Part shown: piece by piece, positions 11,425-27,471 of the stretch
How the letters are laid out: the number at the start of each line of letters is the position of its first letter
How positions within the stretch are numbered: position 1 is the first letter of the stretch
IMG/VR virus record: IMGVR_UViG_3300029846_000001
Length of the DNA stretch: 64,000 bases
Source: a virus
Taxonomy: Duplodnaviria; Heunggongvirae; Uroviricota; Caudoviricetes
Strand: one strand, 5' to 3'
The notes under the pieces: model-generated
Databases searched by the model: none
Seen by the model: only the letters and a program-made list of their open reading frames with translations
What the model was told of the DNA's origin: nothing
Made by a program: the position numbers and the translations under genes

Positions 11425-13683
11425 ATGGGTGTCAAATGTCAGATAGAAAAAAAGGAAAATGAAATAAAACGGGTTAAGGCTCCTAACGGGGAGCCTTCCG
11501 TTCTTTACGAAAGTGCTTTAAAAGTATTAGGAAACAGCGAGCGGGCCCTTCAGGTATGGGCTAAGGCTTACACTCCTGGTTTTTTGTCGTATTACGGTCA
11601 TTGGAATAACCCGGCTCCAGGGGAGATGTTTAACACCGATCCCAATGGCGAACCTCTTTTAGAAGATGTGCTGTCGTATATGAAGCGTCAGACTTATTTT
11701 GCTGATCCTTTAACGGCTCAGGATGTTAAGGATGTAAGGGATTTCCTTTTGTCTACTCATTATTTTTTCAATGCGTCTTCATTGTCTAATGCTATTCTCT
11801 TCGATTTTTATGTAGATGGCAGTTTGATACTGAATGAGCAGAAATTAAGGAGATCCGGTTTGTATGATGAAACAGAAATAAGTCGTATTTTATCCGATCC
11901 TTCTGTTTTAAACGAGGTTTCGACTTCCATGAGAAAGTTAATAGATTCTTCTATTAACGAACATGATAGGGAAAAGGATAATTATTTTATGTCTGTTGAC
12001 TATCAGTATGGTCCTATTGTTTACAAGGAGGGAGTGTTTAACCAATTTGGTAAAAAAGTACCATATAATCCTTCTGAGCTTTATTGGGCTATGGGCAAAA
12101 CAGTAGCCGGCATAAAAAACTTTTCTGAATTTTCATCTGCTTTTGAATCGTTGAGAAACTCATACCCTGAACTGGTTGAGAAATTCGTTTCTGATAAAGA
12201 ATTTGCCGAATCTATGTTTGATGAGTTCTCATCTACGAATAAGATTCCGGTAATAAACATAGAAGGGGATGATGTGGTAGAAGGCAAGAGAAGATCCTTG
12301 TCTAAGCTACAAGATCTGTCTTATTACAATCCTGGCAAAATAGAGTTCCTAAGAGCTCGTATATCAGCTTATTTACATAGGGCTAATGCCGACACCGAAT
12401 CCGATTTAAGAAGCATGATATGGGATATAGAAGAGGCTTGTACGTGGTTTGGCATAGATATAATAGGGACATCGGAAACTTATGATGGCACAGAAGAATC
12501 TTTGAATAAGATAGATAATTTGATGCTGGATCTTGATATTTATGTGGCCAGGCATAATGATGTAAATTATGCTCCAACGCTGGCATCTTCTATAGATGAT
12601 GTTCTTGGTGATAGTACAGACTATTATTTTGGATTATTGCCGGAGTATATGGATAATTTGAATATCGTTTATTCTGAATCCGATATAGACCCAGTAGAGG
12701 CATTTGAGAAACATTCATTGCTTAAGGTAGGAGATAATCTATATCAAAGGATCAGCAAAGATGATCTTAACGAGATGTATCAAATATCAACAGTATTAGC
12801 CAAGCACAACCTAACTCATTTTTCTACTAAAATATATCCTGAATCTTGTTTTAAGAACGGCGTTTTGGATAAAGAGAAAGTACGGAACGTAGATGATAAT
12901 ACGCTCATGGCTTCCATTAAAAAATACGTCAGATCGTTCATGGATTCTCAGAACACAGAGGACATGATAATGACCAGGATGGCGTTTGGGCACCCTGCGG
13001 TACTTGACGTTCCTTACGTGGATGTGGATCGGGAGTATAGTCGATACATGAACAAAAAACAAGATAGCGAAAACCCATTATCCTTATTCGATTTATACCA
13101 ATCTTACCTTGACAACAAACTCCATAAAACAAAATTATATGATAATGCCTATAAGTATCTTGACTTCAAACCTGGTCCATCTTTGGGTCTTATTTCTGAT
13201 GATCCTGATATTTTGAAATCAATAGAATTATCTTTATCTGGAAAAGACAGGTTGATGTTGTTTGATTATAGCATGACCAGTACCGACCCTTCTTTATCAG
13301 AATTGTTTTATTTGGAGAGGTATGACCCTTCGTATGCTGGGAATGATTTTGAACACTATTTTTACACCAGGCACCCGTATTTGTTAAAAGAAAAATCGGG
13401 TTCTAATATCGTAGAGCAAGATGGTGTTATAACAGCAGAAGGTATTTATGATAATTTTATAAGAGTAGGTAATAAGATATGGTCTAAAGTAAGCGAGAGT
13501 AGTTCCGGCTCTATCTACCAAAATCTGACAGGAACCGAATCGGAGGTGAAATACGATTCTACTCAGAAGGCTAAGACGGTAGAAACTGATTACGCTCCAT
13601 ACCAAAACAGATCTGGCTTGACGCAAGACATGACCGTAAGCAAGTCTGAATTGGATGATCTTAACAAATTGGAATGCAGGTAA
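11425..13683 (+). CDS. hypothetical protein, 752 aa (structural-block protein)
   Basis: 752-aa ORF, co-directional with the giant genes, followed by a hairpin terminator. Confidence 0.75.
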   Translation: MGVKCQIEKKENEIKRVKAPNGEPSVLYESALKVLGNSERALQVWAKAYTPGFLSYYGHWNNPAPGEMFNTDPNGEPLLEDVLSYMKRQTYFADPLTAQDVKDVRDFLLSTHYFFNASSLSNAILFDFYVDGSLILNEQKLRRSGLYDETEISRILSDPSVLNEVSTSMRKLIDSSINEHDREKDNYFMSVDYQYGPIVYKEGVFNQFGKKVPYNPSELYWAMGKTVAGIKNFSEFSSAFESLRNSYPELVEKFVSDKEFAESMFDEFSSTNKIPVINIEGDDVVEGKRRSLSKLQDLSYYNPGKIEFLRARISAYLHRANADTESDLRSMIWDIEEACTWFGIDIIGTSETYDGTEESLNKIDNLMLDLDIYVARHNDVNYAPTLASSIDDVLGDSTDYYFGLLPEYMDNLNIVYSESDIDPVEAFEKHSLLKVGDNLYQRISKDDLNEMYQISTVLAKHNLTHFSTKIYPESCFKNGVLDKEKVRNVDDNTLMASIKKYVRSFMDSQNTEDMIMTRMAFGHPAVLDVPYVDVDREYSRYMNKKQDSENPLSLFDLYQSYLDNKLHKTKLYDNAYKYLDFKPGPSLGLISDDPDILKSIELSLSGKDRLMLFDYSMTSTDPSLSELFYLERYDPSYAGNDFEHYFYTRHPYLLKEKSGSNIVEQDGVITAEGIYDNFIRVGNKIWSKVSESSSGSIYQNLTGTESEVKYDSTQKAKTVETDYAPYQNRSGLTQDMTVSKSELDDLNKLECR

Positions 13684-13721
13684 TTTTTGTATATATATAG
13701 TTTTTTCATAGTTATAATTTG

Positions 13722-13756
13722 GGAAGTGAGGCTTGTGAAAGTCTCACTTTTCTTAT
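13722..13756 (+). terminator. putative Rho-independent terminator (aagtgag / ctcactt stem followed by a T-run)
   Basis: 7-bp inverted repeat 13724-13730 / 13743-13749 followed by ttttcttat, 40 nt after the stop of the 752-aa gene. Confidence 0.4.
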
Positions 13757-13903
13757 ATATGCACGTATATCAATAACATACAAGAAAAGTTAGATTTTCA
13801 TTGTTTATGAATTATTTTTATTAAGTTTGCAATATTAGTTTCAGGAAGGGATTATGGAAATAAGGAAAAAGTAAGAACCGAACGTAACTAATAACAGTAG
13901 GAA

Positions 13904-14101
13904 ATGAGAATCAGTACCATCAAACGTAACAACAGCATTCATCTTATGTATAAAAACATTATGAATGATTTAGGTCAATTAAGAACTGTAGTTTCAAAAT
14001 CCTATATTTATAATCTGATACAAAATCAAACCGGATTAAGTATCAGAACTATATCCCATGTCTTGAATCACACAAAAGAACAGGATACAGATTCTTTGTG
14101 A
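13904..14101 (+). CDS. small putative helix-turn-helix DNA-binding protein (65 aa)
   Basis: Segment SKSYIYNLIQNQTGLSIRTISHVLNH resembles a classic HTH; sits alone in a 700-bp AT-rich intergenic island. Confidence 0.3.
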   Translation: MRISTIKRNNSIHLMYKNIMNDLGQLRTVVSKSYIYNLIQNQTGLSIRTISHVLNHTKEQDTDSL

Positions 14102-14183
14102 AAGGCATACATTTTCCTACATTTGTGTGTTCTTTAGTTTTTAGATTTAAGTTTTTCATGGTATTAGTTTAGATTAGTGTAGA

Positions 14184-14222
14184 TCAGGGCTCGCAGTGAT
14201 GCGGGCCCTGGTTTGATTTAAA
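14184..14222 (+). terminator. putative terminator hairpin (cagggc...gccctg) followed by a weak T-run
   Basis: GC-rich 6-7-bp stem cagggctcgcagtgatgcgggccctg, then gtttgattt. Confidence 0.3.
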
Positions 14223-14388
14223 AAGTATTAAAATATTTGCTATTTAAAATCCTGTTCCTATCTTTGCTCCAGAAACAATGAACAACGAGATCCCACCTCT
14301 GGTTGTTTGATGTTGAAAGATATTTTTGGCTCATTAGGGTTTGTCATAGTGGGATCTGACATTCTCTTTTGGGCCTATTTTTTTTATC

Positions 14389-14964
14389 ATGGATAAAGTT
14401 TCTGTTTTTGAAAGTTCGGATTTTGGAGAGCTTAGAATTATTGTAGATCCAAAAGGAGATGTTTGGTTTGTGGCGTCAGATGTGGCTAAATCTCTTGGAT
14501 ATATAAATGCTAAAGATGCGGTAAAAAGACATGTAGATGATGATGATTCTATGCTTTTGCAAGTATCTGATAATCAATGGGGCGTAAAACGATCTATATT
14601 GAAAACCAGATATATAGATAGTATAAGAATAATTAATGAATCTGGTTTATATTCTCTTATATTATCTTCAAAATTAGAGTCTGCTAAGAGATTTAAGAAA
14701 TGGGTAACATCTGAGGTTCTTCCTTCTATTCGTAAAACAGGAGAATATAAAACAAGTTCCGGTGGAAAGGGAATTTTGGTCCCTGACTTTTCTAATCCGG
14801 CAGATGCAGCAAGAGCCTGGGCTGATCAATATGAAGCTGCTCAAAAAGCTATAGCCGAAAAGTCGCAGGCAGAGGCAGAAGCCGTCGTTCTGATGGGACG
14901 TACATGGAGTACGGACATGGGTTCCTTCCTCCTTATGATCATTACGGTATGCATGAGAAGATGA
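14389..14964 (+). CDS. Bro-N / KilA-N-like domain protein (phage antirepressor-like)
   Basis: GELRIIVDPKGDVWFVASDVAKSLGY ... SGLYSLILSSKLESAKRFKKWVTSEVLPSIRKTGEY matches the Bro-N family N-terminal domain; the C-terminus appears to change frame (see 14856-15170). Confidence 0.7.
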   Translation: MDKVSVFESSDFGELRIIVDPKGDVWFVASDVAKSLGYINAKDAVKRHVDDDDSMLLQVSDNQWGVKRSILKTRYIDSIRIINESGLYSLILSSKLESAKRFKKWVTSEVLPSIRKTGEYKTSSGGKGILVPDFSNPADAARAWADQYEAAQKAIAEKSQAEAEAVVLMGRTWSTDMGSFLLMIITVCMRR

Positions 14965-15170
14965 AGGAAATGGAAGAACGCGAAAACGAGCTGGAAGAAA
15001 GGGAAAGAAGGCTCGAAGAGCGCGAACGTCGTCATGAAATGGAGGACCGGGAATACCGGAGGATGGGTTACGAATCCTACCCGACCGATTACTATGGAGA
15101 CGACAGATACTACGGTGACGGACCTCAGATGCGTAGAGGTCGCGGACGTGGCAGAGGTCGTTCTTATTGA
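14856..15170 (+). CDS. Glu/Arg-rich and RG-repeat C-terminal segment in the -1 frame relative to Bro-N (possible frameshifted C-terminal extension)
   Basis: The frame is open from 14856 (PKVAGRGRSRRSDGTYMEYGHG...) through EERENELEERERRLEERERRHEMEDREYRR ... RRGRGRGRGRSY*; it overlaps the last 36 codons of the Bro-N ORF; locally GC-rich. Confidence 0.35.
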   Translation, partial: RKVAGRGRSRRSDGTYMEYGHGFLPPYDHYGMHEKMKEMEERENELEERERRLEERERRHEMEDREYRRMGYESYPTDYYGDDRYYGDGPQMRRGRGRGRGRSY

Positions 15171-15263
15171 GGAGCAGACGCAGAGGATCCAGCTTATCAG
15201 AAATATGTAGATACTTACGGCTACCATTTTTCTAATGCTCTCGCTGATGAGGCGGTAAAGAAG

Positions 15264-15557
15264 ATGGTCAACGTCGATGGATCCAAGAGGATCTGGAAGC
15301 AGCCGGAAATAAAAGATATTTTTGAAAAGTGCGGAGCGAAGAAGCCGGATAAAGCGACATGGGGCGATGTCCAATATGTCTTTGCAATGTACTATTCGGA
15401 TGGTTTTCCGAAGGTCTTCAAATGTGAGAACGAGTTGGTGAAAGCTACGTTAATGTATTTGGATGATCCGGATGCTCCCGAAGGAGTAGCCTTTATAAGA
15501 TGGCTTGCCGTGCAAGATTACCTCGGCGAAAAAATAAACTGGAAGGATCTGACCTGA
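15264..15557 (+). CDS. hypothetical protein, 97 aa
   Basis: ORF in a co-directional island, followed by a terminator-like hairpin. Confidence 0.45.
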   Translation: MVNVDGSKRIWKQPEIKDIFEKCGAKKPDKATWGDVQYVFAMYYSDGFPKVFKCENELVKATLMYLDDPDAPEGVAFIRWLAVQDYLGEKINWKDLT

Positions 15558-15918
15558 GATCCAGATCCAGGTCCTTCCGGTGGTGCGGGAGCCATAGTAA
15601 AAAATATGATTCCCGCATTCCCGTTTTTCCCGTTTGGAAAAAAAGGAATAAAAATATTATACCGGTCGGCGGGCAATAGAATACCCGTGGCCGGTTTGTT
15701 TCACATAACTTTTTTTTGACATGAATATAGCACACGAATCTAAATCGAATAAAACCCCATTGTATTTAATAGGAGAGTTGATTGGCGTACCGAATACGGT
15801 TATGGACTCAGCATTGCATGAACTGAGAGATAGAATAGACAAAGACCCTAAATATAAAGATGTTAAAAATTGGCTCGAGTCTTTACCCAAGATCTGAACC
15901 TGTTTTTTCAATACCAGG

Positions 15919-15950
15919 CCCGATGCGATTTTAACGTATCGGGTTTTTAT
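15919..15950 (+). terminator. putative Rho-independent terminator (cccgat...atcggg followed by ttttta)
   Basis: 6-bp stem 15919-15924 / 15938-15943 followed by a T-run. Confidence 0.4.
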
Positions 15951-16023
15951 TTTAATTCATATTGTTTTATTTCAAATCTAATTAATTCATGAATGTCGTA
16001 CATTTGTTGAAAAAGTATTTTTT

Positions 16024-16251
16024 ATGGAAAATAAGGAAGATTACGTTGGTTACGAAGATCAAGAACTGTGTAACCGGTATTACAAAGAGGCTGAAGCCAT
16101 GAGACAAAAGCAGGACTGGTCTCGGCTTAGGGCTGTCCCTGCTCCGGCTAAGGGAACGCCATCGCCCGGCTGGGGTCAGCTTGGACGTGGAAATGGTGTC
16201 AGTGTTAAGTACGTTAGCATCAATTCAGGATTAGGAGGGGACAGATTATGA
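16024..16251 (+). CDS. hypothetical protein, 75 aa
   Basis: ORF; 4-nt overlap (ATGA) with the next ORF suggests coupling. Confidence 0.35.
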   Translation: MENKEDYVGYEDQELCNRYYKEAEAMRQKQDWSRLRAVPAPAKGTPSPGWGQLGRGNGVSVKYVSINSGLGGDRL

Positions 16252-16463
16252 CTGTAGAAGAATTGGCTAATAAAAGATACGGTGGCGAATTTGTTTTCAT
16301 GTTTGGTCATCTTGAAGGTAGAACAAGATTCGTTTTTGAATGCTTTGATCCAAGACCTGATCATGAAGGTAAAAACACTTATATAGTTTCTTATTTTGAT
16401 AAGGGACTTCGTAGAAGAGATGTGGTAGATGTGCCATGTTATATGAATGTTTTAGCAAAATAA
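16248..16463 (+). CDS. hypothetical protein, 71 aa
   Basis: ORF coupled to the upstream ORF. Confidence 0.4.
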   Translation: MTVEELANKRYGGEFVFMFGHLEGRTRFVFECFDPRPDHEGKNTYIVSYFDKGLRRRDVVDVPCYMNVLAK

Positions 16464-16483
16464 ATTAAAATATTGTAAATATC

Positions 16484-17119
16484 GTGGTTAGAATCGCATA
16501 TTTCGGAACCGATGGCTGCCCCGGTCATCACGTTATTCCAATACGAGGTAAATTTACGGAAGAGGATGTTAAGGTAATAGAATCTGTAGATTGTGATGAT
16601 TTCTATAAGGTGTTTGATGTCATGCGTTTTAAGATAGCTGAGTTTAAAGGATGGACGATATTAGGAATCCCGGCAAGCTTAGACGATCATAGACCTGGAA
16701 GCAAAACCGTTATCTTCATAGAGGGTGAAGCTAACGAAACTGACTTTATGGAAGTTATACAAGAGTATTCTTTTCTTAAAAATAAGGTAAAGAAACTTGC
16801 CGAATTGTATCATGATGGAGAATGGCTTGCGACTGGTAAATTGAATCAAGATCCGCCTACTAACAAGGAGCGGTTTCAATTTACGTTAGACAAGGATGAT
16901 ATTATTAACCTGATTAGGGGAGTCGATTTAGATCCTTATTCTGATGTGGCGAATGAAATGGAGAAAATCGGATTGGGATCATCATCTGATTCTTCATATG
17001 AGGGTCCCACATGGTCTTGGTTTGTTAACAAAGTAGAACTTTGGCAGAAGAATAATGTATGGGATAGTTTCTCCGCTGAGTTTTTGTGGGGTTTGTATTG
17101 TAGGATAAAGAAAGTATAG
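16484..17119 (+). CDS. hypothetical protein, 211 aa
   Basis: ORF (track start may be GTG); no recognisable motif. Confidence 0.5.
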   Translation: MVRIAYFGTDGCPGHHVIPIRGKFTEEDVKVIESVDCDDFYKVFDVMRFKIAEFKGWTILGIPASLDDHRPGSKTVIFIEGEANETDFMEVIQEYSFLKNKVKKLAELYHDGEWLATGKLNQDPPTNKERFQFTLDKDDIINLIRGVDLDPYSDVANEMEKIGLGSSSDSSYEGPTWSWFVNKVELWQKNNVWDSFSAEFLWGLYCRIKKV

Positions 17120-17142
17120 TAACAATTAATTTAAAACAAATC

Positions 17143-18006
17143 ATGGAATTAAAAGATTTTAAAGATGTGGTTAGAGTAATGACAAAAGAAGAGTTCGAAT
17201 CAACAATCGAAGAAGATATTAAATTCGTTGAGGGATTCAAGAATTTCTTAAAACATGATGATGCCACGAGGATAGTAGAGCATATCAAGTCTGTGTTAGA
17301 AGCATCAGTAGATTATTACTATCCTAATCATCCTGAAGTAGAATTTGAAAAAGATTTTAATATACAATACGATGTCAATAATATCTTGAACAAATACGGC
17401 CACACCGAAATGGGTATGTATAAAATACAGCTCTATATAGAGAATATTTTGGGTAGTATTCAAAACAAGAAGCCTGTAGACGTGGGAGAAGTCTCTGACG
17501 GATACCACACTTTCAATGAATTGTATCGGTATCGCATGTTGTATAACGCTGCCTTCTTTAATCTATTAGCCAGAAACGGACAGGTTGAAGTTTGCAAATC
17601 AAGGAGACACAGCGACGGAGAAAAATGCTTCGGTTCTGATGATTGGTTTATTGTGATGGCGATCCTACCTACCGGTCAGGTATCTAATCACTATGAAAGC
17701 AAATACTGGGATTTGTTTGATGTTCCTGAAAGAGAAACTGCTTTCGAATACGATGGCCATACACCAAATGAAGCTGCCGACAGACTTAAAAAGTATCTCA
17801 AATTGCCTCGTCGTGGCATGACATTCGAACAGGCTTTAGAACGGCTTAAATTAGGTCGTAAGATAAAAAGAATCGATTGGGGTAAAAAGTATATCTGTAT
17901 GTTTGACGTAAATATATTGATGGTAGATACAGGTCAAAAAGTAGCATCAAATTGGAATCCAACCGAACATGATATTATGTCTAATGACTGGGAGATTGCG
18001 GGATGA
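17143..18006 (+). CDS. hypothetical protein, 287 aa
   Basis: ORF; C-terminal W/K-rich segment (MTFEQALERLKLGRKIKRIDWGKKYICMFD...DWEI) of unknown function. Confidence 0.55.
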   Translation: MELKDFKDVVRVMTKEEFESTIEEDIKFVEGFKNFLKHDDATRIVEHIKSVLEASVDYYYPNHPEVEFEKDFNIQYDVNNILNKYGHTEMGMYKIQLYIENILGSIQNKKPVDVGEVSDGYHTFNELYRYRMLYNAAFFNLLARNGQVEVCKSRRHSDGEKCFGSDDWFIVMAILPTGQVSNHYESKYWDLFDVPERETAFEYDGHTPNEAADRLKKYLKLPRRGMTFEQALERLKLGRKIKRIDWGKKYICMFDVNILMVDTGQKVASNWNPTEHDIMSNDWEIAG

Positions 18007-18042
18007 GTTTGTATATCCGAAATAACATTAAAACAATATAAT

Positions 18043-18268
18043 TTTATTATAAGGTTTTAATGTACCATAAATGGTCCGGATATTAGCCTAAGCCTTGAAA
18101 CGAAGGCTACGTTATTTAAGAATAGATAGTTACCTACGGATGTTTACCCAAGTCTGTAGCTCTAAGGTAAGTGATTAAACAGTTCTGGTATTCAGGAACG
18201 GTGTTGCTTACTAAAAACCTTAAATAACATTGGCGATGGGTACTAACAGAGTTTTACTCTGACTTATG
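18043..18268 (+). ncRNA. candidate omega RNA (IscB guide RNA scaffold), copy A, directly upstream of iscB
   Basis: About 225-nt noncoding element ending 30 nt before the iscB ATG; a homologous inverted copy at 47930-48170 shows compensatory base changes (e.g. stem ctacgg/ctgtag versus caagga/ttcttg around the conserved loop atgtttacccaagt); small hairpin accataaatggt at its 5' side. Confidence 0.55.
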
Positions 18269-18297
18269 TTGAATAAACATTAAAAACGTTTGTAGAT

Positions 18298-19518
18298 ATG
18301 GTGTACGTACAAGACATAAATGGTAAACCTTTGATGCCCACAACAAGGCATGGTAAGGTTAGACGACTGCTTAAAGACAAAAAGGCAGTTGTTGTAAACC
18401 TATGTCCGTTTACCATCAAATTAATGTACGTTACATCTGATTACAAACAGGAAATTGTTTTAGGCGTTGATGCTGGAACTAAACATGTTGGTCTATCAGC
18501 AACGACGAAAAGCAAAGAACTTTACAGCAGTGAAGTAATTCTTAGAAATGATATCGTAGATCTTTTGTCTACCAGAAGAGAGCTACGGAAAGCAAGACGG
18601 AACAGGTTAAGATATAGAAAACCTCGTTTTGATAACAGAGTAAAAAGCAAGCGTCTAGGATGGATAGCACCTTCGGTGAAATACAAAGTAGACGCCCATA
18701 TTCGTGTTGTTGAAAATGTTTGCTCTATATTACCAATATCTCGTATTGTTATTGAAGTAGCTCAATTCGATACTCAAAAGATTAAGAATCCTGAGATATC
18801 AGGTAAAGAATACCAGGAAGGTGATCAACTTGAGTTGTGGAACACAAGGGAGTATGTTTTAGCAAGAGATGGACATAAATGCCAGTATTGTAAAGGCAAG
18901 TCAAAAGATTCTATACTGAATGTTCATCATATTGAGTCTCGAAAAACCGGAGGGGATTCCCCTTCTAATCTTATAACTTTATGTGAAACATGTCACAAAG
19001 AATACCATAAAGGTAATATAGATTTAAAGATCAGAAGAGGCAAGTCGCTTCGCGACGCAGCCGTAATGGGAATTATGAAATGGAGGTTGTATGAAGAGTT
19101 AAAATCCAGATACGACAGAGTTTTTATGACGTTTGGTTACATTACGAAACATAATCGGATTAAATATGGGATTGAAAAATCCCATACATCCGACGCGTTT
19201 GTCATTTCTAAGAATATTAATGCGAAACGAATCGAACGTCAATATTTAAAACGTTTAATTCGTAGACATAATAGACAAATACATAAAATGAAAATTTTAA
19301 AAGGGGGGAAGAAGAAAAACAATCAAGCTCCTTTTGAGGTTTTCGGTTTTAGGTTGTTTGATAAAGTGTTGTATAACAATAAAATATTCTTTGTTTATGG
19401 AAGGAGAAAATCAGGGAGTTTCAATATCAGGGATTTCAACGGAGAAAATTCAAAAGATGTTTCACGCAAAAAGTTTAAACTCATTAGAGGGAAGAGGCAT
19501 CCGATTATATTAAAGTAA
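18298..19518 (+). CDS. iscB: IscB, an OMEGA-system RNA-guided nuclease (IS200/IS605-associated Cas9 ancestor), 406 aa
   Basis: PLMP motif (DINGKPLMPTTRHGK); RuvC-I (LGVDAGTKHVGLS); Arg-rich bridge helix (RRELRKARRNRLRYRKPRF); RuvC-II (IVIEVAQFD); HNH (CQYCKG...NVHHIESRKTGGDSPSNLITLCETCHKEYH); RuvC-III (KSHTSDAFVIS). Confidence 0.85.
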   Translation: MVYVQDINGKPLMPTTRHGKVRRLLKDKKAVVVNLCPFTIKLMYVTSDYKQEIVLGVDAGTKHVGLSATTKSKELYSSEVILRNDIVDLLSTRRELRKARRNRLRYRKPRFDNRVKSKRLGWIAPSVKYKVDAHIRVVENVCSILPISRIVIEVAQFDTQKIKNPEISGKEYQEGDQLELWNTREYVLARDGHKCQYCKGKSKDSILNVHHIESRKTGGDSPSNLITLCETCHKEYHKGNIDLKIRRGKSLRDAAVMGIMKWRLYEELKSRYDRVFMTFGYITKHNRIKYGIEKSHTSDAFVISKNINAKRIERQYLKRLIRRHNRQIHKMKILKGGKKKNNQAPFEVFGFRLFDKVLYNNKIFFVYGRRKSGSFNIRDFNGENSKDVSRKKFKLIRGKRHPIILK

Positions 19519-19555
19519 ATGAACGGATTTAATAAATTTAATAGAAAAACGTATC

Positions 19556-19861
19556 ATGTATAATAAAGAAATAGTAATATGCGCGGCCATCTGGGTGCAG
19601 GACGGCAAGAAGCGTCCTCATCAGCCCACCAATATACCATCCGGCGCCGTATTTTGTGGATTGAGACATTGTTCTATCATTTCTCAGTTTGCGGCATACG
19701 GTATAGCTCATAAAAACCGCAGTGTTCAAGGATTTTTGACAAGCAAGAACCGGTTTCTGACGAGAGAAGAAGCGTCTGAGCTTGTTAAGAACAATAATCA
19801 GGAGATGGTAGTAGATAGGAATGCTATTAGAGAACAATTGTATTCAGAAGATTTATATTAA
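19556..19861 (+). CDS. hypothetical protein, 101 aa
   Basis: ORF immediately downstream of iscB. Confidence 0.45.
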   Translation: MYNKEIVICAAIWVQDGKKRPHQPTNIPSGAVFCGLRHCSIISQFAAYGIAHKNRSVQGFLTSKNRFLTREEASELVKNNNQEMVVDRNAIREQLYSEDLY

Positions 19862-19878
19862 CTAAAAAACAAAACAAC

Positions 19879-20235
19879 ATGGGGTTTAAAATCAAAAAGT
19901 CAATCATTTATAATATGATGAACGGCAGTCGGGTAGAGTACGAATTTGACAATACCAAGGATTTTGATTATATTACATTTAAGGGTGATGGCAAAGAGTC
20001 TTTTTCATTTAACGTAATCCTTGTTAAACAATTAATTGAAACATTTGAAATCATGTTGCAGGATATATATTCTGATAATTATAAGCTTAAGGTTTATGCT
20101 GGTAATTGCATAGCTCAATTGAACGTAAATCCAAAGGACTCAAGTGAATCCTTTTTTGACGTATATGATAAAGATGAAACGAAACTGATATATGGAATAG
20201 AGATCGGTATTCTGAAAGAAATGTTTGGCATATGA
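19879..20235 (+). CDS. hypothetical protein, 118 aa
   Basis: ORF; ATGA overlap with the next ORF. Confidence 0.5.
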   Translation: MGFKIKKSIIYNMMNGSRVEYEFDNTKDFDYITFKGDGKESFSFNVILVKQLIETFEIMLQDIYSDNYKLKVYAGNCIAQLNVNPKDSSESFFDVYDKDETKLIYGIEIGILKEMFGI

Positions 20236-20552
20236 TTACTAAACAAGATATACAAGCAGCAGCATCGTATATTTTCCGAAGCAGTTTTGTCTCAGAAGAC
20301 CAGGCAAGGAAAGTAACGATAAGAGCCGGTAATAACGCTACCAAGAACCTTGTCAAGACCTTCAGAGGAAAGTTGTTCAAGAAGGCTTTTGGAAGAGCTC
20401 GTAGAGGAAAGGATATCAGTTCTTTTGAAAGACAAGAAAAAGAAAGTGGTTTTAATTTTCTTTATAATCCTAATAATGGTCGTATGCGAAGCGGTCATAT
20501 TATAATAGACGGAATTGGTCTGTTTAAACAAATAATAGAGTCGGGTACGTAA
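20232..20552 (+). CDS. hypothetical basic protein, 106 aa
   Basis: ORF; Lys/Arg-rich (KKAFGRARRGK). Confidence 0.5.
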   Translation: MITKQDIQAAASYIFRSSFVSEDQARKVTIRAGNNATKNLVKTFRGKLFKKAFGRARRGKDISSFERQEKESGFNFLYNPNNGRMRSGHIIIDGIGLFKQIIESGT

Positions 20553-20570
20553 GTTATCCGACTTTTTTAT
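20539..20570 (+). terminator. putative Rho-independent terminator (agtcgg...ccgact followed by tttttta)
   Basis: 6-bp stem overlapping the stop codon, followed by a T6 run. Confidence 0.45.
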
Positions 20571-20581
20571 ATATTTGTGGC

Positions 20582-20905
20582 ATGGCAAGAGGTTATTATT
20601 GGATACCACAAACAGATGAAACGTTAAATGGCAGAAGCTATTACGTGGCTAAGATAGTAGGAGATATCACGTTTGATACTAAACGAAAAAGAATCGTATT
20701 TCAAGCTGATAGGTATTTCCCTGTAGGATCTGTTTTCCATTTTACGCACAATTGCTTCAATTATATCATAACTTGCCGACTTCGTAAGCCGGGGCTTTGG
20801 TTTGAAGCCAGGAGAGAGGATTCGGGCCCTATTTGCCCTGAAGATATTGAGCGCTTTGAATCGGGAAGGTTTATACACCGAGATGGGTACATGCATTACA
20901 TATAA
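20582..20905 (+). CDS. hypothetical protein, 107 aa
   Basis: ORF between two terminator-like hairpins. Confidence 0.45.
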   Translation: MARGYYWIPQTDETLNGRSYYVAKIVGDITFDTKRKRIVFQADRYFPVGSVFHFTHNCFNYIITCRLRKPGLWFEARREDSGPICPEDIERFESGRFIHRDGYMHYI

Positions 20906-20958
20906 GCTGAACTTGACGATTTTTCGTCAGATTATAATTTTTTTATCATATCATTTTT

Positions 20959-20997
20959 AAGCCATCAGACTGAGAAGTTAGATGGCTTTATTTTTTA
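20959..20997 (+). terminator. putative Rho-independent terminator (aagccatc...gatggctt followed by tattttttat)
   Basis: 8-bp perfect stem 20959-20966 / 20981-20988 followed by a T-run. Confidence 0.5.
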
Positions 20998-21048
20998 TGA
21001 TATGCTTGATTTTTAACTACCTTTGTCTCATAACAAAAATGTTTTATC

Positions 21049-24000
21049 ATGGTATCAACGTGTATTATTAAAAGAGATAATAAAAAGAAAGTTGTTTCTG
21101 TCTCTACCAGATCAGGGGACAGGTCTATGTTGTTTGATAAGATAGCATCTATTCCTCTTATGGAGAACAGGGAACGGGCTACTACTGTTTTTAAAACCGT
21201 ATTTTCCAACAAGTTCTTAAAGGCTTTTGGCGACTGGAGAAAGAGAGTGCCTATCAACAAACAGGCTTATAATAAGGTAAAATCCAACATCGATCTTATC
21301 CCAGAAGCCTACAGAGAAAGGGTGCTGGATAAGGCTTCTAAGATGAGTAACCCTGTTCTTGTGTCAAAATCAGATGCACCTTATGAAATCCGAGAATCGG
21401 GCTTTGGATTTTACAGCCAAGATCTGGGTGATAATATTATGTTGGTAGATGCTATGGTCCCGTCAAGTATTTCCGTACCGGAAGAACCAGGAATAGACGC
21501 CGGGCAGTATTTACAAGATGCTATATCTTCGGACTTCACTCCCGTATCTGTGGTACAGGATAAGGGTGTTAATTATATGGTTATAAAAGACGGTCTTAAG
21601 ATATTTAGCCCAGAGGAGTTACCAGAAACAGATTCTAATCCTGTGGGTGTAACGTATCAGACCGGAGAGCCTCGTTTGTTTTTCATGAACGATCGTAGTC
21701 AATTATTTGAAGATTACGGAGAAGCTCTTCGCTCTGGCGGGAATGATATCAGAATAGGGTTCTTATCAGGCACCGTTCAGGAATCTGCCGTGGATGGCGT
21801 GGCAGACATTACTTACAAAGCTGGAAAGTATGTTCTTAATAATCTCAAATCTTTTATACCGGTCATGACCGCTTCTGCTTCTACTTCTTTATCAACAAAA
21901 GGTGGTATAATTAACTACCTTATAAAGAAAGGTCTTTTGTCCGGATCTAAGATATTCGATTCTGAAACAAGAAGCTATTATCTTACAGGAGAAGGTCATA
22001 CAGGACAAATTAGACTTTTCAATTCAGCCTTATCATACACCGAGCTCCGTAATCATTTTGGTTCCGATGTTTCCATGAACGACCAAGGTATGATAACCAT
22101 AAGCTCGTTGGATAATAGTAAGGTAACTATGAGACTCGCCACCGGAGGAACGGAAAGGGTTAGCAAAGAGCAGATAAAGAACGATCTTAAGTCGGGAAGA
22201 TACAATGAATTGGACGCCAAGTACGATCATTTTGATGCGCTTGTAGTTTCATTCATATTAGAAGACAACGATCTTTACGCTGATACTAAAGCTAAGATCG
22301 TATCAGATTATAGCAGGCAGGAACGTGATCAACGAAATTCTATTGTCGAGATACTGAAAACTCTTGGCGTTAGTGTCATAGGTATGACCGATTATATAGA
22401 GAAGTACCAAACCAAATACGGGCATGAACCTTCTGCTAAGGCATTGGCGGATATTGCCAATAACGTAATAGCAGTTGGTGAAGATGCTACTTTATCTGAT
22501 TTAGTAGAAGAAACAGCCCACTTCCTTGTAGAGGCATACAGAGATCAGAATGCTGTTGAGGCTGTTCTGCAAGATGTAGAAGGTACGGAAGAGTGGAACC
22601 AGTATGCAGGTCAGTATTATAATACATACGGTAAAGCGTATGAAGGAGCTGAGCTTGATAATGCTGTTAGGAGAGAAATTCTTGGAAAGATCCTCGCCAG
22701 GGAGATGCAGACCGGCACAGCACAGGCGCCGGTAGAGCCCACCTCCTTCCTGGGGCGCGTCCGGCGGCTTTTCTCTGGAATAGTAAGCTGGCTTAAATCA
22801 GCTTTATCAACCCAAAGACAAGATTTGAATAACGTTATTAAAAACATTCGTGATCTTGCCATTACTGACATAGATAAAGGATTTGACACTTCTCTGTTAA
22901 AGGATAATGACTTTACATTATACTCCCTTTCTTCTATGAACAAGAACAAGTTTCTTGAGTCTAAGATCAGATCGCTAAGAAAAACATTAAGAGACTTACG
23001 TCAGATAAGCTCTGATAGGGCTGTAACTACGTCTATGACCCTTGCGCAGCTTAAGACCATAGAAGATAAGATAAATAAGGTAGAGACCGAAATAGACAAG
23101 AATGAGATGGCGGCTGCCATGAACAGCATGATCTCTACAGCCGAAGCTCAGGTCAGATACTTAAGCAATGTGGTGAACACCATCCTTCATGGTGATACCA
23201 AAGACGGCAAGCTTCATTTCAATACCAATGATCGAAAGAACGTAGATATTATCAACAATCAGGTTCTTCCGATCATGAACGATCTTCGAGGATATATCCG
23301 TAACAGAAGTACCGAATTTGATGAACGTGAAAAGCAGGATTATACAAATAGGATCAATACCGTCATTGCCGACATCAATGGTATTCAGTCTGATATTAAA
23401 TCAGTACAAGACCTTGATGAAAGCACGTTGCTTGATAAGTTAATGAACGAACTTCATGTGCCGGCAGATAAGGTAAAGAGAGTAAAAGAATTTTTCGACA
23501 AGGTTCAACACGATGTTTCTTGGATAAGTAGGTGGTTTGGTATATTAGAGCATTCTTCCAGTCCGTTCAATAACGCTCTTGGAGCTATGATTGCCAAAGA
23601 CAATTACAATGCGATGGTGAATGCCCAGCCCGCCATATCCGATTTCCTGGCATATGCGAAAAAGCATGGTTTTAACAAATCTGAATTTGAAAAACTGCTT
23701 CAGAAAGTAGATGGCAAAACTTCTAATTACCTTCGTAGTGCTCTTGATATGGCTAAATACGATCGTAATAAGAAGCTGGCGCAGATGCGAGCGTTTGCGA
23801 CTGCCATGAACATAGAGATATCAGAAGAAGAAATTGGTGATGTGGTTGACAATAACCGTAATTACGTATTTAAAAGAGAAGTAGTTGACAAGGATGGAAA
23901 TACGGTTACTGAAAACGCTAAATTCAAACCATCGTCTGATAGAGTTAATACCGATATTTTTACCATCGAGCAGGAAAAGATCTATACAGAGCAGATGGAA

Positions 24001-27000: not shown

Positions 27001-27471
27001 AAACGCCTCAGTGTCTATGCCGGCACGTTTCTTATCATGCAAGCCGTATCTATGCTTCTTGCCGGATGGCGTGATGATGATGAAAACGAAGAAAGTTGGC
27101 TTACTCAATTTGGATCCTATGTCGGATTCAGAACCATAAACGAAATAGCTTCACAGATGCCGTTTATTATGGAGCTTAACGTGGTAGATATCATTAACGA
27201 TCCGTTTGTTATGGGGCGAAAACTGAAGGATCTTACCGATCTTAGGAATTATTCACTTGATAAAGTAACATCCGGTACATACAAGGGAGAGTCTAAGTTA
27301 TTTAGGCAACTCGCCAAACAGACGTTTATCAAACAATGGTATAATATCAAGACGCCGGAAGACGTAGCGCGCGCCTATAATTGGTGGCAGCAGACGAACA
27401 ACAAGTCAATGATGTTCTTCATCGGCGCTACTCCTGATTCGGAAGGGGACGATGATGTTAGCTACAAGTAG
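21049..27471 (+). CDS. giant hypothetical protein, 2140 aa (virion/tail/ejected protein; coiled-coil-rich, hydrophobic C-terminal segments)
   Basis: 2140-aa uninterrupted ORF; long helical/coiled-coil stretches; C-terminal hydrophobic helices (TFLIMQAVSMLLAGW); followed by a strong terminator. Confidence 0.85.
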   Translation: MVSTCIIKRDNKKKVVSVSTRSGDRSMLFDKIASIPLMENRERATTVFKTVFSNKFLKAFGDWRKRVPINKQAYNKVKSNIDLIPEAYRERVLDKASKMSNPVLVSKSDAPYEIRESGFGFYSQDLGDNIMLVDAMVPSSISVPEEPGIDAGQYLQDAISSDFTPVSVVQDKGVNYMVIKDGLKIFSPEELPETDSNPVGVTYQTGEPRLFFMNDRSQLFEDYGEALRSGGNDIRIGFLSGTVQESAVDGVADITYKAGKYVLNNLKSFIPVMTASASTSLSTKGGIINYLIKKGLLSGSKIFDSETRSYYLTGEGHTGQIRLFNSALSYTELRNHFGSDVSMNDQGMITISSLDNSKVTMRLATGGTERVSKEQIKNDLKSGRYNELDAKYDHFDALVVSFILEDNDLYADTKAKIVSDYSRQERDQRNSIVEILKTLGVSVIGMTDYIEKYQTKYGHEPSAKALADIANNVIAVGEDATLSDLVEETAHFLVEAYRDQNAVEAVLQDVEGTEEWNQYAGQYYNTYGKAYEGAELDNAVRREILGKILAREMQTGTAQAPVEPTSFLGRVRRLFSGIVSWLKSALSTQRQDLNNVIKNIRDLAITDIDKGFDTSLLKDNDFTLYSLSSMNKNKFLESKIRSLRKTLRDLRQISSDRAVTTSMTLAQLKTIEDKINKVETEIDKNEMAAAMNSMISTAEAQVRYLSNVVNTILHGDTKDGKLHFNTNDRKNVDIINNQVLPIMNDLRGYIRNRSTEFDEREKQDYTNRINTVIADINGIQSDIKSVQDLDESTLLDKLMNELHVPADKVKRVKEFFDKVQHDVSWISRWFGILEHSSSPFNNALGAMIAKDNYNAMVNAQPAISDFLAYAKKHGFNKSEFEKLLQKVDGKTSNYLRSALDMAKYDRNKKLAQMRAFATAMNIEISEEEIGDVVDNNRNYVFKREVVDKDGNTVTENAKFKPSSDRVNTDIFTIEQEKIYTEQMEKWDAENSELEFSESYATRMESIYKKAEEELGHPVSQTTKEYLNALSRQKRILRQPFIDSGGNFDEVAYFKSSNYEEEGLLRKQRKEAASEYIYVGTRRVEKTGDQLKMAKEIQAINEVWRKESNNVTNAVSESFLQKLRTIQSESGGEAALKTLMLGGHLSFNDRFWNEVESEQSARTESNNKASYLKMAHDIISSTTSDRDATDVDSIVKDIEKNKAIIKEIIGNNRDVADIGEINEATFTSSERDAFRAASEAIEADYAILIDYAKMVGLEDIDKYLTKSSKAENEVNQSYLNALADSKEVEWKFVQRHTTAKKAKRIQALRDKLFKAADNRYLFTVSETNYLSEKLGISKELDGRDFRNAVNAKMASLFLNNTREEGIEETNAIVNEFARSQVFSYYKRMAPTGYAAMIDKIGRGEIDVAQMVKDVQNGTSTQDYGMDISYLSFDPARAWVAESEAENSGRNPDYVKDHGYGHRMPKKSLYRDESYLNDFGIKYDADGNEVATKNVEQWNMIQKLKEIKRQSLDLYKEQSPNLYAIPQISKQDIERMEGLGINFKNTVRNFVSDLCLDRVDDSLYGKTRQGEVYDPEDRLRSIPKYYIYELENQDDVSHDFGYSYSMLMMQSSLYNEKQKSIELAQGLEQMLLNKQFEGGKKAEATQAYQMFRDFFNDHYYGIRMNTKKLTVNIGGYTVDLTRIMMAVERFMSVMNLALSPFVAATGALTGHINLIMESAVGQYISKDSLKYASAEFSRLAPSCIAETGDIDRKSKLYVIGERMGIFNIRNRMYGAGYNRAARTLMRSPMYAFMEILNYPLDPQVMIATMDNVRYYKGRFYTFQDFKMEKERNKEQSTIKREWNALKDRTLWSMVDVVDGKVVVKPGSGVTVEEVETQMAITRNQVRSLSQICNGSLNEENRTAASRNWIARFMTAHRGWLVLAAQRLWKRRGFNFQTMQEEEGLSITLKNMIAKTFSLASESGMKNIIDAWNENKDNMNEVEKTNLKRLSVYAGTFLIMQAVSMLLAGWRDDDENEESWLTQFGSYVGFRTINEIASQMPFIMELNVVDIINDPFVMGRKLKDLTDLRNYSLDKVTSGTYKGESKLFRQLAKQTFIKQWYNIKTPEDVARAYNWWQQTNNKSMMFFIGATPDSEGDDDVSYK

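What the first reader, a model, noticed from the sequence alone, without database searches (positions are those of the whole stretch)
13684..21048. Accessory island inserted between structural genes, bounded by terminators, carrying regulator, Bro-N and IscB modules
The giant structural genes (up to 13683 and from 21049) are interrupted by a 7.3-kb segment of about 14 small same-strand genes punctuated by at least 5 hairpin terminators. The segment holds an HTH protein, a Bro-N antirepressor-like protein, IscB with its omega RNA, and several orphans. This looks like a hotspot for acquired moron, anti-defence or competition genes. An 8-bp inverted repeat gatcccac / gtgggatc (14288-14295 and 14350-14357) lies just ahead of the Bro gene, possibly an operator.
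Basis: partly seen in the sequence, partly recalled or inferred. Interest (0 to 1): 0.5.

Follow-up and report, generated by a model that had tools for sequence, protein, structure and literature searches.

The report
Hypervariable accessory island in gut phage
A 7.4-kb stretch of small genes between two giant virion genes of a crAss-like gut phage is a real, dispensable and extremely variable region, but it is old and shaped by deletions and selfish RNA-guided nuclease elements, not a recent import of foreign genes.

Summary
The window is an epsilon crAss-like phage, 95% identical to crAssE-Sib. The segment 13684-21048 is as described: 14 same-strand ORFs, six or seven hairpin terminators, a Bro-N protein, and IscB with its omega RNA.

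Among 74 relatives whose flanking genes are 94-100% identical, the island runs from 1.5 to 9.9 kb and shows 70 architectures. A distant relative has the flanking genes almost adjacent. So it is accessory.

It is not freshly acquired. Its composition matches the backbone. The same collinear gene series occurs in relatives down to 43% flank identity. Most variation is deletion, about 88 events. The window's Bro-N is a remnant of a 2.6-kb deletion between 13-nt repeats.

At least 33 of 74 islands carry IscB, TnpB or IS607 elements. IscB (18013-19555) keeps one right flank but has at least 11 different guide-side junctions. Each is followed by ATG in IscB-less genomes, which looks like a TAM.

- a conserved FopS-like small RNA (14149-14222);
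- a WDGH plus Tad2-like (anti-Thoeris) fusion protein.

The 9-bp inverted repeat is at chance level. The HTH call is only weakly supported.

The parts
11425..13683 (+). Upstream anchor gene (752 aa). Babkin et al. 2024 call it a DNA-dependent RNA polymerase.
   Evidence: It is conserved from 23 to 100% identity and was used to fetch relatives.
13721..13752 (+). Hairpin terminator that closes the 752-aa gene; left edge of the island.
   Evidence: -19.3 kcal/mol, z -5.8.
13904..14101 (+). 65-aa conserved first gene, a putative three-helix DNA-binding protein. A TAAGTTTG promoter-like box lies at 13822.
   Evidence: Present in 69 of 74 genomes. It is 68% identical in relatives with 47-53% flank identity. 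The HTH evidence is weak. The gene is frameshifted in crAssE-Sib.
14149..14222 (+). FopS-like small RNA: seed GUUUUUCAUGGUAUUAG, a 15-bp terminator hairpin (14182-14211) and a U tract. A TACATTTG box lies at 14118.
   Evidence: Rfam RF04319 at 32.2 bits, below the gathering score of 56. Found at the same place in 83 of 87 relatives, down to 43% flank identity. Five hairpin pairs show compensatory changes.
14310..14964 (+). Bro-N antirepressor remnant. The ORF is 14389-14964. The ancestral start at 14310 is out of frame here because of the T run at 14376-14385. The KilAC/ANT domain has been deleted.
14867..14879 (.). Junction of a 2.6-kb deletion between 12-13-nt direct repeats (GGCAGAGGCAGA). 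It removed the Bro C-terminus, the 354-, 137- and 162-aa genes and the start of the 125-aa gene. The same deletion is in L031, L043 and L046.
14904..15170 (+). 88-aa remnant of the 125-aa Arg/Gly/Glu-rich gene (GC 0.51).
15264..15557 (+). 97-aa DUF7841 protein.
   Evidence: E 3.8e-9. Conserved in L084 and L086.
15721..15946 (+). 58-aa ORF followed by a terminator at 15916-15946. In 8 relatives a 1.35-kb TnpB element is inserted inside this ORF.
16024..17119 (+). Orphan ORFs of 75, 71 and 211 aa. A TACATTTG box lies at 15999. The 211-aa gene is absent from crAssE-Sib.
17143..18006 (+). 287-aa fusion of a WDGH domain and a Tad2-like (DUF2829) domain.
   Evidence: Pfam E 1.3e-36 and 6.4e-11. Weak match to SPO1 Tad2, 8sme, E 0.007. 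Alleles are 62-100% identical. The two domains are split into separate genes in L088.
17997..18012 (+). Guide position of the omega RNA (TGCGGGATGAGTTTGT), taken from the flank. It carries a 4-nt deletion relative to the ancestral junction GGATGAGTTTGTTTGT.
   Evidence: The rule that the guide is the 5' flank comes from Meers et al..
18013..19555 (+). IscB (OMEGA, IS200/605-type) element. The omega RNA scaffold runs from 18013 to about 18262, with stem P1 formed by ATATCCG/CGGATAT. The iscB gene is 18298-19518. The end of the element is at 19555.
19556..19560 (+). TAM-like ATGTA immediately after the element. It is also the start codon of the 101-aa gene.
19556..20565 (+). ORFs of 101 aa (phrog_839), 118 aa and 106 aa, then a terminator at 20537-20565. 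Alleles diverge to 66-88% identity.
20582..20988 (+). 107-aa gene present in all 74 genomes (TATATTTG box at 20570), followed by two terminators at 20913-20930 and 20959-20988. Right edge of the island.
21049..27471 (+). Downstream anchor gene (2140 aa), a virion structural protein. A TACCTTTG box lies at 21018.

Best explanation
The segment is a long-standing, lineage-specific accessory region of epsilon crAss-like phages. It is a same-strand array of small, individually dispensable genes placed between two virion-protein genes. It appears to be organised in about four promoter-to-terminator units.

It probably works as a set of host-takeover, competition and counter-defence add-ons:
- a conserved small DNA-binding protein;
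- a FopS-like small RNA that would mimic host regulators of SusC-type transporters;
- a Bro/KilAC antirepressor, truncated here;
- a Tad2-like nucleotide-sponge domain;
- orphans.

The region does not diversify by importing new cargo. It changes in three ways:
1. Frequent illegitimate deletions.
2. Exchange of divergent alleles between co-circulating phages.
3. Repeated invasion by RNA-guided nuclease transposons (IscB, TnpB, IS607).

The window's IscB element sits between a flank-derived guide and an ATG motif. Its omega RNA must be made by read-through from the upstream genes. In the population its guide-proximal end has been joined again and again to new upstream sites. Each event deletes what lay between and re-programmes the guide.

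Shown: the anatomy, the variability, the junctions and the domain assignments.
Inferred: the functions, the promoters, and the enzyme that makes the junctions.
For: Identity of the phage:
- 94.6% DNA identity to crAssE-Sib, an epsilon crAss-like phage of the proposed genus Epsilonunovirus.

Variability:
- Island length is 1,500-9,864 bp, with 70 architectures in 74 genomes. Flanking genes stay 94-100% identical.
- About 88 distinct indel events are seen against one reference. Most are private, pure deletions with breakpoints inside genes.
- The window's own deletion lies between 12-13-nt repeats.

Age and lineage specificity:
- The same gene order is present at 53% and 43% flank identity.
- The island is about 2 kb at 70% flank identity.
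- It is absent at 23% flank identity.
- Composition is like the backbone, and there are no bounding repeats.

Content:
- Domain matches.
- FopS-like RNA. FopS biology comes from PMC11697453.

Transcription units:
- Terminators.
- TAnnTTTG boxes in the spacers.

Mobile elements:
- At least 33 of 74 islands carry one.

IscB:
- The scaffold starts at 18013, and stem P1 shows compensatory changes between two alleles.
- There are at least 11 independent guide-side junctions. In IscB-less genomes each is followed by ATG[A/T/G]T.
- The right flank is constant (ATGTAT).
- A second genomic locus has both flanks new, and its right flank is again ATGTT.
- IscB and the 91-aa gene never occur together.
- The literature rule is that the scaffold is the transposon right end, the guide is the 5' flank, and read-through transcription is needed.
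Against: - No function in the island has been tested. Ten of the 14 proteins have no significant family match. PADLOC finds nothing.
- Only one domain (Tad2-like) points to counter-defence. It is fused to an uncharacterised WDGH domain.
- The FopS match is below Rfam's gathering score.
- The TAnnTTTG motif is not enriched in the window as a whole: 80 matches against 69 expected.
- A five-gene block (354, 137, 162, 125 and 97 aa) is retained across deep divergence. It may have a more than optional role.
- No Y1 TnpA transposase was found in the window or in any locus, so the enzyme behind the precise IscB junctions is unknown.
- Most relatives come from one large metagenome collection. They are assemblies, not isolates.
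Confidence: 0.75

Rival explanations
1. The island is a recently acquired foreign block, or a discrete mobile island, that inserted between two structural genes.
For: - The anchor genes are adjacent in the distant relative L087.
- GC is locally high in the 88-aa, DUF7841 and 75-aa ORFs, at 0.45-0.51.
- Individual IscB and TnpB elements are clearly insertions.
Against: - Overall composition equals the backbone.
- There is no integrase and no att-like repeat.
- Homologous, collinear islands lie at the same site in relatives with only 43-53% flank identity. Any acquisition therefore predates the split of the epsilon genera.
- The gene pool is closed, at about 25 families.
Confidence: 0.08
2. The island is a core lysis-lysogeny control module (repressor plus antirepressor), as proposed for crAssE-Sib by Babkin et al. 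2024.
For: - The 65-aa gene is conserved and possibly DNA-binding.
- A Bro-N/KilAC protein follows it in many relatives.
- The paper annotates them as repressor and antirepressor.
Against: - The antirepressor is intact in only about a third of close relatives. Coverage of the window's 191-aa Bro product reaches 80% or more in 23 of 74. It is truncated in the window.
- The 'repressor' is frameshifted in crAssE-Sib itself.
- It has no significant HTH family match.
- There is no integrase in the island.
- The rest of the island has no link to lysogeny.
Confidence: 0.1
3. The guide-side IscB and TnpB junctions are not made by a transposase. Random microhomology deletions next to the omega RNA create new guides. 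Only those whose new target is followed by a TAM in rival phages spread, because the nuclease then cuts the rivals and the break is repaired from the deleted allele. This is an RNA-guided gene drive in co-infections.
For: - No TnpA was found.
- The scaffold starts with AT, so every junction has 2-nt microhomology with ATG.
- Small 4-10-nt deletions recur right at the guide-scaffold border, in the window, L065 and L099.
- Changes are one-sided: at least 11 guide-side junction types for IscB and 5 for one TnpB (4 beyond the standard site), against none on the TAM side.
- The same junction occurs in different island backgrounds, for example L040 and L045.
- TnpA-independent, TnpB-dependent spread of IS605 in plasmid populations is reported.
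Against: - Breakpoints fall on exactly the first scaffold base in every independent event. That is what a site-specific strand transfer gives.
- A copy at a second locus has both flanks new, so true transposition did occur.
- Host IS200/605 TnpA could act in trans.
Confidence: 0.25
4. The variability is an artefact of metagenome assembly: strain mixtures collapsed into chimeric contigs.
For: Most loci come from one IMG/VR dataset, 3300045988.
Against: - The same junctions recur in contigs from different datasets and in the separately sequenced crAssE-Sib genome.
- Deletions have clean repeat-bounded junctions.
- Elements have precise ends.
- ENA and Logan assemblies show the same pattern.
Confidence: 0.03

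Closest known systems
Phage moron loci and hyperplastic or accessory regions (lambda morons, T4 hyperplastic regions, accessory or anti-defence hotspots between conserved genes). This comparison rests on general knowledge.
   Same: - Small dispensable genes with their own promoter-like and terminator signals, set between conserved virion genes.
- Content differs between near-identical genomes.
- Contains a counter-defence-type domain and a host-mimicking regulator.
   Different: - The gene pool is closed and collinear over deep divergence.
- Turnover is dominated by loss and by selfish nuclease elements, not by new cargo.
- Breakpoints are inside genes, not at cassette borders.
IS200/IS605-type OMEGA elements encoding IscB with a HEARO/omega RNA (Altae-Tran 2021, from general knowledge; Meers et al. 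2023, PMC10055086).
   Same: - RuvC (RRXRR) and HNH domains.
- HEARO RNA directly upstream.
- The scaffold starts at the element boundary, and the guide is the 5' flank.
- The upstream gene is on the same strand.
- No tnpA next to it, as in about 98% of iscB loci.
- A short motif (ATG) abuts the other end.
   Different: - It resides in a virulent-type phage genome.
- Many junction variants share one TAM-side flank, so changes are anchored at the guide end and go with deletions of neighbouring genes.
- The window's guide carries a 4-nt deletion that shifts it out of register with the TAM.
FopS family of paralogous small RNAs of Bacteroides (Rfam RF04319; Ruettiger et al. 2025, PMC11697453).
   Same: - The 5' single-stranded R1 seed GUUUUUCAUGGUAUUAG matches the family consensus over 17 nt.
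[quoted passage not shown]
- A TAnnTTTG box lies upstream.
- The authors already noted one copy in a Caudovirales phage.
   Different: - It scores 32 bits against a gathering score of 56.
- The middle part and the hairpin sequence differ.
- In the window the promoter-like box is 23 nt from the seed, against 9 nt in L084 and L086.
Tad2 (DUF2829) anti-Thoeris sponge of phage SPO1 (PDB 8sme), and AcrIIA7.
   Same: The C-terminal 62 residues match Pfam Tad2-like over the whole model (E 6.4e-11) and weakly match solved Tad2 chains.
   Different: - It is fused to a 100-residue WDGH domain and an N-terminal extension, whereas Tad2 is a small stand-alone protein.
- Sequence similarity to characterised Tad2 is marginal (E 0.007).
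Free-standing homing-endonuclease islands of T-even phages (seg and mob genes, localised marker exclusion).
   Same: - Selfish nuclease genes sit between conserved phage genes.
- They are mutually exclusive with the allele they replace. Here IscB replaces the 91-aa gene.
- They are expected to spread in co-infection.
   Different: - Target recognition would be by a guide RNA taken from the flank, so any adjacent rearrangement re-programmes it.
- Homing was not tested here.

Membership tests
IscB / OMEGA element | RuvC-like (RRXRR) and HNH nuclease domains in one protein of about 400 aa | tested here: met
   Pfam RRXRR E 4.8e-61 over 174 of 174 model positions; HNH E 4.7e-11.
IscB / OMEGA element | HEARO/omega RNA immediately upstream on the same strand | tested here: met
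   Rfam RF02033 at 107.7 bits, above the gathering score of 83, at 18038-18247. The true 5' end is 18013. Stem P1 shows compensatory changes between alleles.
IscB / OMEGA element | The guide lies outside the element and varies with the insertion site; a fixed motif (TAM) abuts the target | tested here: met
   17 different 16-nt flanks in 56 copies. These represent at least 11 independent junction sites in the island plus one second locus. In IscB-less genomes the island junction sites are followed by ATG. Cleavage itself was not tested.
IscB / OMEGA element | Mobilised by a Y1 TnpA transposase | tested here: not met
   No TnpA-like ORF in the window or in 81 loci (tblastn with IS608 TnpA). None is annotated in crAssE-Sib. 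The element would be non-autonomous, as most iscB loci are.
Bro-N / KilAC phage antirepressor | N-terminal Bro-N domain | tested here: met
   Pfam E 6.5e-27, residues 14-112.
Bro-N / KilAC phage antirepressor | C-terminal KilAC/ANT domain | tested here: not met
   Present in relatives' 294-321-aa proteins (ANT E 2.2e-12). In the window it is removed by the 2.6-kb deletion.
Tad2 anti-Thoeris sponge | DUF2829 / Tad2-like domain | tested here: met
   Pfam PF11195 E 6.4e-11, model positions 1-72 of 73.
Tad2 anti-Thoeris sponge | Binds and sequesters the Thoeris signal (gcADPR) | not testable with these tools
   Only weak similarity to solved Tad2 (8sme E 0.007). The WDGH fusion is uncharacterised.
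FopS small RNA family (RF04319) | Reaches Rfam's gathering score | tested here: not met
   32.2 bits against 56.
FopS small RNA family (RF04319) | [quoted passage not shown] | tested here: met
   17-nt match to the family consensus. A 15-bp hairpin with 5 covarying pairs. Conserved in 83 of 87 relatives.
FopS small RNA family (RF04319) | Binds RbpB and represses susC-like mRNAs | not testable with these tools
   Known for B. thetaiotaomicron FopS. There are no host or expression data here.
HTH transcription regulator (65-aa protein) | Recognisable helix-turn-helix domain | tested here: inconclusive
   Pfam Trp_repressor E 0.038. Three-helix model with pLDDT 79. The best Foldseek hits are HTH proteins, but with E above 1.
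Phage moron / accessory hotspot | Dispensable, with presence or absence differing between near-identical genomes | tested here: met
   70 architectures in 74 genomes. The minimum island is 1.5 kb, holding three genes.
Phage moron / accessory hotspot | Foreign composition or recent horizontal origin of the cargo | tested here: not met
   GC 0.368 against 0.378. Homologous collinear islands occur in relatives with 43-53% flank identity.
Integrative genomic island | Integrase or recombinase and flanking att-like direct repeats | tested here: not met
   No such gene in the window's island. No bounding repeats.

The most novel reading that the evidence does not exclude
The IscB and TnpB elements are the engine of this island's instability. 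They act as RNA-guided gene drives between co-infecting epsilon crAss-like phages. Each rearrangement at the guide-proximal end deletes neighbouring accessory genes and, in the same step, re-programmes the guide. The new guide targets the intact allele, which sits next to an ATG TAM and is still carried by competitor phages. The competitors are cut and converted to the deleted, nuclease-bearing allele. This would be a natural case of guide retargeting by deletion, and of OMEGA nucleases shaping a virus's accessory genome.
Probability: 0.2. Interest if true: 0.75.

Novelty: new member of a known kind. Interest (0 to 1): 0.5.

Why it matters
Epsilon crAss-like phages are abundant, uncultured human-gut viruses, and their published description does not mention this region. 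Three points follow from the analysis.

1. It locates the part of the genome that can be lost. That is useful for engineering, and it is the place to look for host-interaction genes.

2. It gives two concrete, testable candidates:
- a phage copy of the FopS small RNA, whose host relatives silence SusC-type outer-membrane transporters;
- a Tad2-like fusion protein.

3. It provides a natural population record of one IscB element with many different guides and an inferred ATG TAM. The junctions are exact. That makes the question of how OMEGA elements move and retarget inside viruses directly testable.

Tried and rejected
- Solved structures. Searches with both giant proteins found nothing, even at E 10. 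I could not confirm which gene is the virion RNA polymerase. No DxDxD motif occurs in the 752-, 2213- or 2140-aa proteins.
- GenBank phages. The collection holds only crAssE-Sib and one 5-kb fragment of this lineage. Synteny had to come from IMG/VR, ENA, Logan and NCBI contigs.
- Family searches. Pfam at relaxed thresholds, PHROGs and PADLOC gave nothing usable for the 58-, 71-, 75-, 88-, 106-, 107-, 118- and 211-aa ORFs. A ZorA hit (E 4e-4) on the relatives' 354-aa protein covers a low-complexity or coiled region, so I ignored it.
- 'WDGH' returned no relevant paper.
The single-sequence model of the 65-aa protein gave no significant fold match.
- The sigma-70 promoter scan showed no excess over shuffles: 66 against 63.
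- I rejected the inverted repeat as an operator.
- I rejected an att-bounded island.
- The empty site of the second IscB locus is not in this window.
- The TAM-like pattern for the 407-aa TnpB element (T-rich, TTTTRTA-like) rests on only 3-4 junctions. I do not claim it.

Full report
**What the window is.**
- Bases 9000-26000 match phage crAssE-Sib (OR575929, 151 kb, human gut) at 94.6% identity over 82% of the query.
- That phage was described as an epsilon crAss-like phage, proposed genus Epsilonunovirus (PMC11054128).
- The paper annotates the 752-aa gene as a DNA-dependent RNA polymerase, the small first island gene as a repressor and the Bro protein as an antirepressor.
- It does not mention a variable region, IscB or Thoeris.

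**Checking the observation.**
- The 752-aa ORF ends at 13683 and the 2140-aa ORF starts at 21049. Fourteen plus-strand ORFs of 58-406 aa lie between them.
- The flanking 1019-aa and 2140-aa proteins match PHROG 'virion structural protein' families.
- Hairpins followed by U tracts lie at 13721-13752, 14182-14211, 15916-15946, 20537-20565, 20913-20930 and 20959-20988. Their fold z-scores run from -3.9 to -7.3. A weaker one lies at 15661-15695.
- Bro-N (E 6.5e-27), IscB (RRXRR E 4.8e-61, HNH E 4.7e-11) and the HEARO/omega RNA (107.7 bits, gathering score 83) are confirmed.
- New assignments are DUF7841 (15264-15557) and a WDGH plus Tad2-like fusion (17143-18006; E 1.3e-36 and 6.4e-11). The fusion has a weak match to SPO1 Tad2 structures.
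- The 65-aa 'HTH' protein has only weak support. Pfam gives Trp_repressor at E 0.038. The model is a three-helix bundle with pLDDT 79. Foldseek gives HTH-type hits with E above 1.

**The inverted repeat.**
- It is real but is 9 bp, at 14288-14296 and 14349-14357.
- It is one of 27 comparable pairs in the island, and the region does not fold unusually well (z -1.16).
- Its right arm lies in the ancestral Bro reading frame. That frame starts at 14310 in relatives and is thrown out of frame here by a T run.
- I treat it as chance.

**Is the region accessory?**
- Using the 752-aa protein I fetched 80 IMG/VR loci with 94-100% identity.
- In the 74 genomes where both anchors are present (72 IMG/VR loci, crAssE-Sib and the window), the island is 1,500-9,864 bp, median 7,334 bp.
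- There are 70 different gene architectures among the 74 genomes. All 74 island sequences differ.
- Only the last 107-aa gene is present in all 74. The 65-aa gene is in 69. The Bro-N product is matched over at least 80% of its length in 23, the 211-aa gene in 27, the Tad2 fusion in 42, and IscB in 13 full copies plus fragments.
- Gene order is strictly collinear: 65 aa, Bro/KilAC, 354, 137, 162, 125, DUF7841, 58, 75, 71, (67), 165/211, WDGH-Tad2, 91 or IscB, 101, 116, 105, 56, 107.
- Against one full-length reference there are about 88 distinct indel events. Most are private, pure deletions with breakpoints inside genes.
- Against crAssE-Sib the window lacks 2.6 kb. The junction at 14867-14879 lies between 12-13-nt repeats. 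This deletion removed the KilAC domain and three and a half genes.
- Against crAssE-Sib the window also has the 211-aa gene extra, carries IscB in place of the 91-aa gene, and lacks a 56-aa gene.

**Is it acquired?**
- More distant relatives were reached through homologues of the 752-aa protein.
  - At 70% identity the island is about 2 kb.
  - At 76% it is 5.2 kb, with the Tad2-like domain as a separate 62-aa gene.
  - At 53% and 43% it exceeds 10 kb and keeps the same series of genes: 65, Bro/ANT, 340, 129, 162, 121, DUF7841, 58, 75, then IscB or TnpB. The 53% relative also has extra genes, a 1067-aa protein and a glycosyltransferase.
  - At 23% the order is 996, 2148, 730, one unrelated 133-aa ORF, 1935 aa. 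The 1935-aa protein is an orthologue of the 2140-aa protein (E 3e-25).
- So the backbone is contiguous outside the epsilon group, but within it the island is ancient.
- Composition agrees. GC is 0.368 against 0.378 for the window, and only a few ORFs are outliers.
- There are no bounding repeats.

**Selfish elements.**
- Insertions relative to the reference fall into these classes:
  - the IscB element;
  - four non-autonomous TnpB families (396, 402, 379/380 and 407 aa);
  - one IS607, with a serine recombinase of 193 aa and a fifth TnpB family of 392 aa;
  - an HNH/NUMOD4-type homing endonuclease.
- At least 33 of 74 islands hold one or more.

**The IscB element.**
- The scaffold starts at 18013, not at 18038 as the Rfam alignment suggests. 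ATATCCG pairs with CGGATAT at 18069-18075. A second allele has ATAATCG/CGATTAT, which is compensatory.
- Everything upstream of 18013 differs between copies. With 42 further IMG/VR copies I count 17 different 16-nt flanks.
- At least 11 independent junction sites lie inside the island. In IscB-less genomes each continues with ATG (ATGAAT, ATGTTT, ATGATT, ATGTTC, ATGGTA, ATGATG, ATGATA, ATGACT and others).
- The other end of the element is constant. It abuts ATGTAT, the start of the 101-aa gene.
- A copy at another genomic locus has both flanks new, and its right flank again begins ATGTT.
- This fits the published rule for IscB. The scaffold is the transposon right end, the guide is the 5' flank, transcription must read in from upstream, and the TAM abuts the target.
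- The ancestral form of the window's junction (GGATGAGTTTGTTTGT|ATATCC) exists in four relatives. The window has lost 4 nt of it, which moves the guide out of register with the TAM.
- IscB and the 91-aa gene never co-occur.
- A 407-aa TnpB element on the minus strand shows the same asymmetry. It has one constant flank and five different flanks on the omega RNA side.
- No Y1 TnpA was found.
- I favour a site-specific strand transfer by a host TnpA. This could be a one-ended reaction, or a local hop followed by recombination between the two copies.
- The alternative is deletion plus RNA-guided drive. I keep it as a rival and as the novel case.

**A small RNA.**
- Between the 65-aa gene and Bro, bases 14149-14222 match the Bacteroides FopS family (32.2 bits, gathering score 56). 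The E-value is 0.0018 for the 171-nt search and 0.097 for the 9-kb search.
- The 17-nt 5' seed matches the family consensus and is followed by the strongest terminator in the island.
- The element is at the same place in 83 of 87 relatives, including those with 43-53% flank identity. That is better conserved than any protein gene of the island.
- Five hairpin pairs covary.
- FopS RNAs repress SusC-like transporters and bind RbpB. The authors noted one phage copy (PMC11697453).

**How it probably works.**
- Terminators and TAnnTTTG boxes are placed 12-82 nt upstream of the 65-aa gene, the ancestral Bro start at 14310, the 75-aa gene, the 107-aa gene and the 2140-aa gene. One more box at 14118 sits upstream of the small RNA.
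- This suggests four units: 65 aa; small RNA; Bro to the 58-aa ORF; and the 75-aa to the 106-aa ORF, which includes the omega RNA and IscB. A separate unit holds the 107-aa gene. This is inference, because the motif is not enriched window-wide.

**Verdict.**
- 'Acquired island' and 'operator' are not supported.
- The kind of feature is known.
- The population record of IscB retargeting and the conserved FopS-like RNA are the parts worth following up.

Noticed in passing
window 14149-14222 (+): FopS-like small RNA. It has the Bacteroides R1 seed GUUUUUCAUGGUAUUAG and a strong terminator. It is conserved at this site in 83 of 87 relatives, down to 43% flank identity. It scores below Rfam's gathering threshold (32 bits against 56).
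   Followed up: yes
window 18013-19555, and IscB-bearing loci among L009-L077 and L089-L130: The IscB omega RNA scaffold starts at 18013, 25 nt upstream of the Rfam match. Copies share one right flank but have at least 11 independent guide-side junctions. Each is followed by ATG in IscB-less genomes. The window's guide has a 4-nt deletion. L065 and L099 have similar small deletions at the same border.
   Followed up: yes
L008, L017, L022, L024, L026, L027, L040, L042, L047, L050 (island coordinate about 4820 of L028; equivalent to window about 15850): A 1,348-bp element with imperfect terminal inverted repeats of about 25 bp and a 407-aa TnpB on the minus strand, inserted inside the 58-aa ORF. 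L012, L018, L026 and L047 have different flanks on its omega RNA side only.
   Followed up: partly
L008 13900-15780: A complete IS607-type element in one relative's island. It has a 193-aa serine recombinase and a 392-aa TnpB.
   Followed up: partly
window 10147-11424: A second, smaller variable spot between the 2213-aa and 752-aa genes. The window has 183- and 179-aa ORFs, and the latter is absent from crAssE-Sib. L007, L078 and L088 have a TnpB there. L084 has eight extra genes, L085 a KilA-N/ANT gene, and L083 and L087 nothing.
   Followed up: partly
window 14310-14391: The Bro gene has an upstream in-frame start in relatives, giving a hydrophobic 27-aa leader (MLKDIFGSLGFVIVGSDILFWAYFF). 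In the window and in crAssE-Sib, the length of a T run (14376-14385) puts the leader out of frame. This could be homopolymer-length variation or a sequencing error.
   Followed up: partly
L001 14242-14466 (crAssE-Sib 95,129-95,353): The protein published as the crAssE-Sib 'repressor' is frameshifted after about residue 36, compared with the window and with relatives at 47-53% flank identity. It lacks the conserved C-terminal helices.
   Followed up: partly
relatives only: L001 15722-18153, L084 14037-16419, L086 13062-15488: A four-gene block deleted or truncated in the window, conserved down to 43% flank identity. It holds a 340-355-aa Gly/Asn/Cys-rich protein with a hydrophobic segment, a 129-157-aa protein, a 162-aa coiled-coil protein and a 121-125-aa Arg/Gly/Glu-rich protein. 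Its function is unknown. The 'spike glycoprotein' label in GenBank is not supported by Pfam.
   Followed up: partly
L075 15058-15792 (-): A 245-aa NUMOD4/HNH-type homing endonuclease gene sitting among TnpB fragments in one relative's island.
   Followed up: no
window 28500-64000 (minus-strand genes): GC skew and coding strand flip near 28.5 kb, at the start of the replication and nucleotide-metabolism module. In crAssE-Sib this module is annotated with a helicase, a cytosine methyltransferase and a dATP/dGTP diphosphohydrolase.
   Followed up: no
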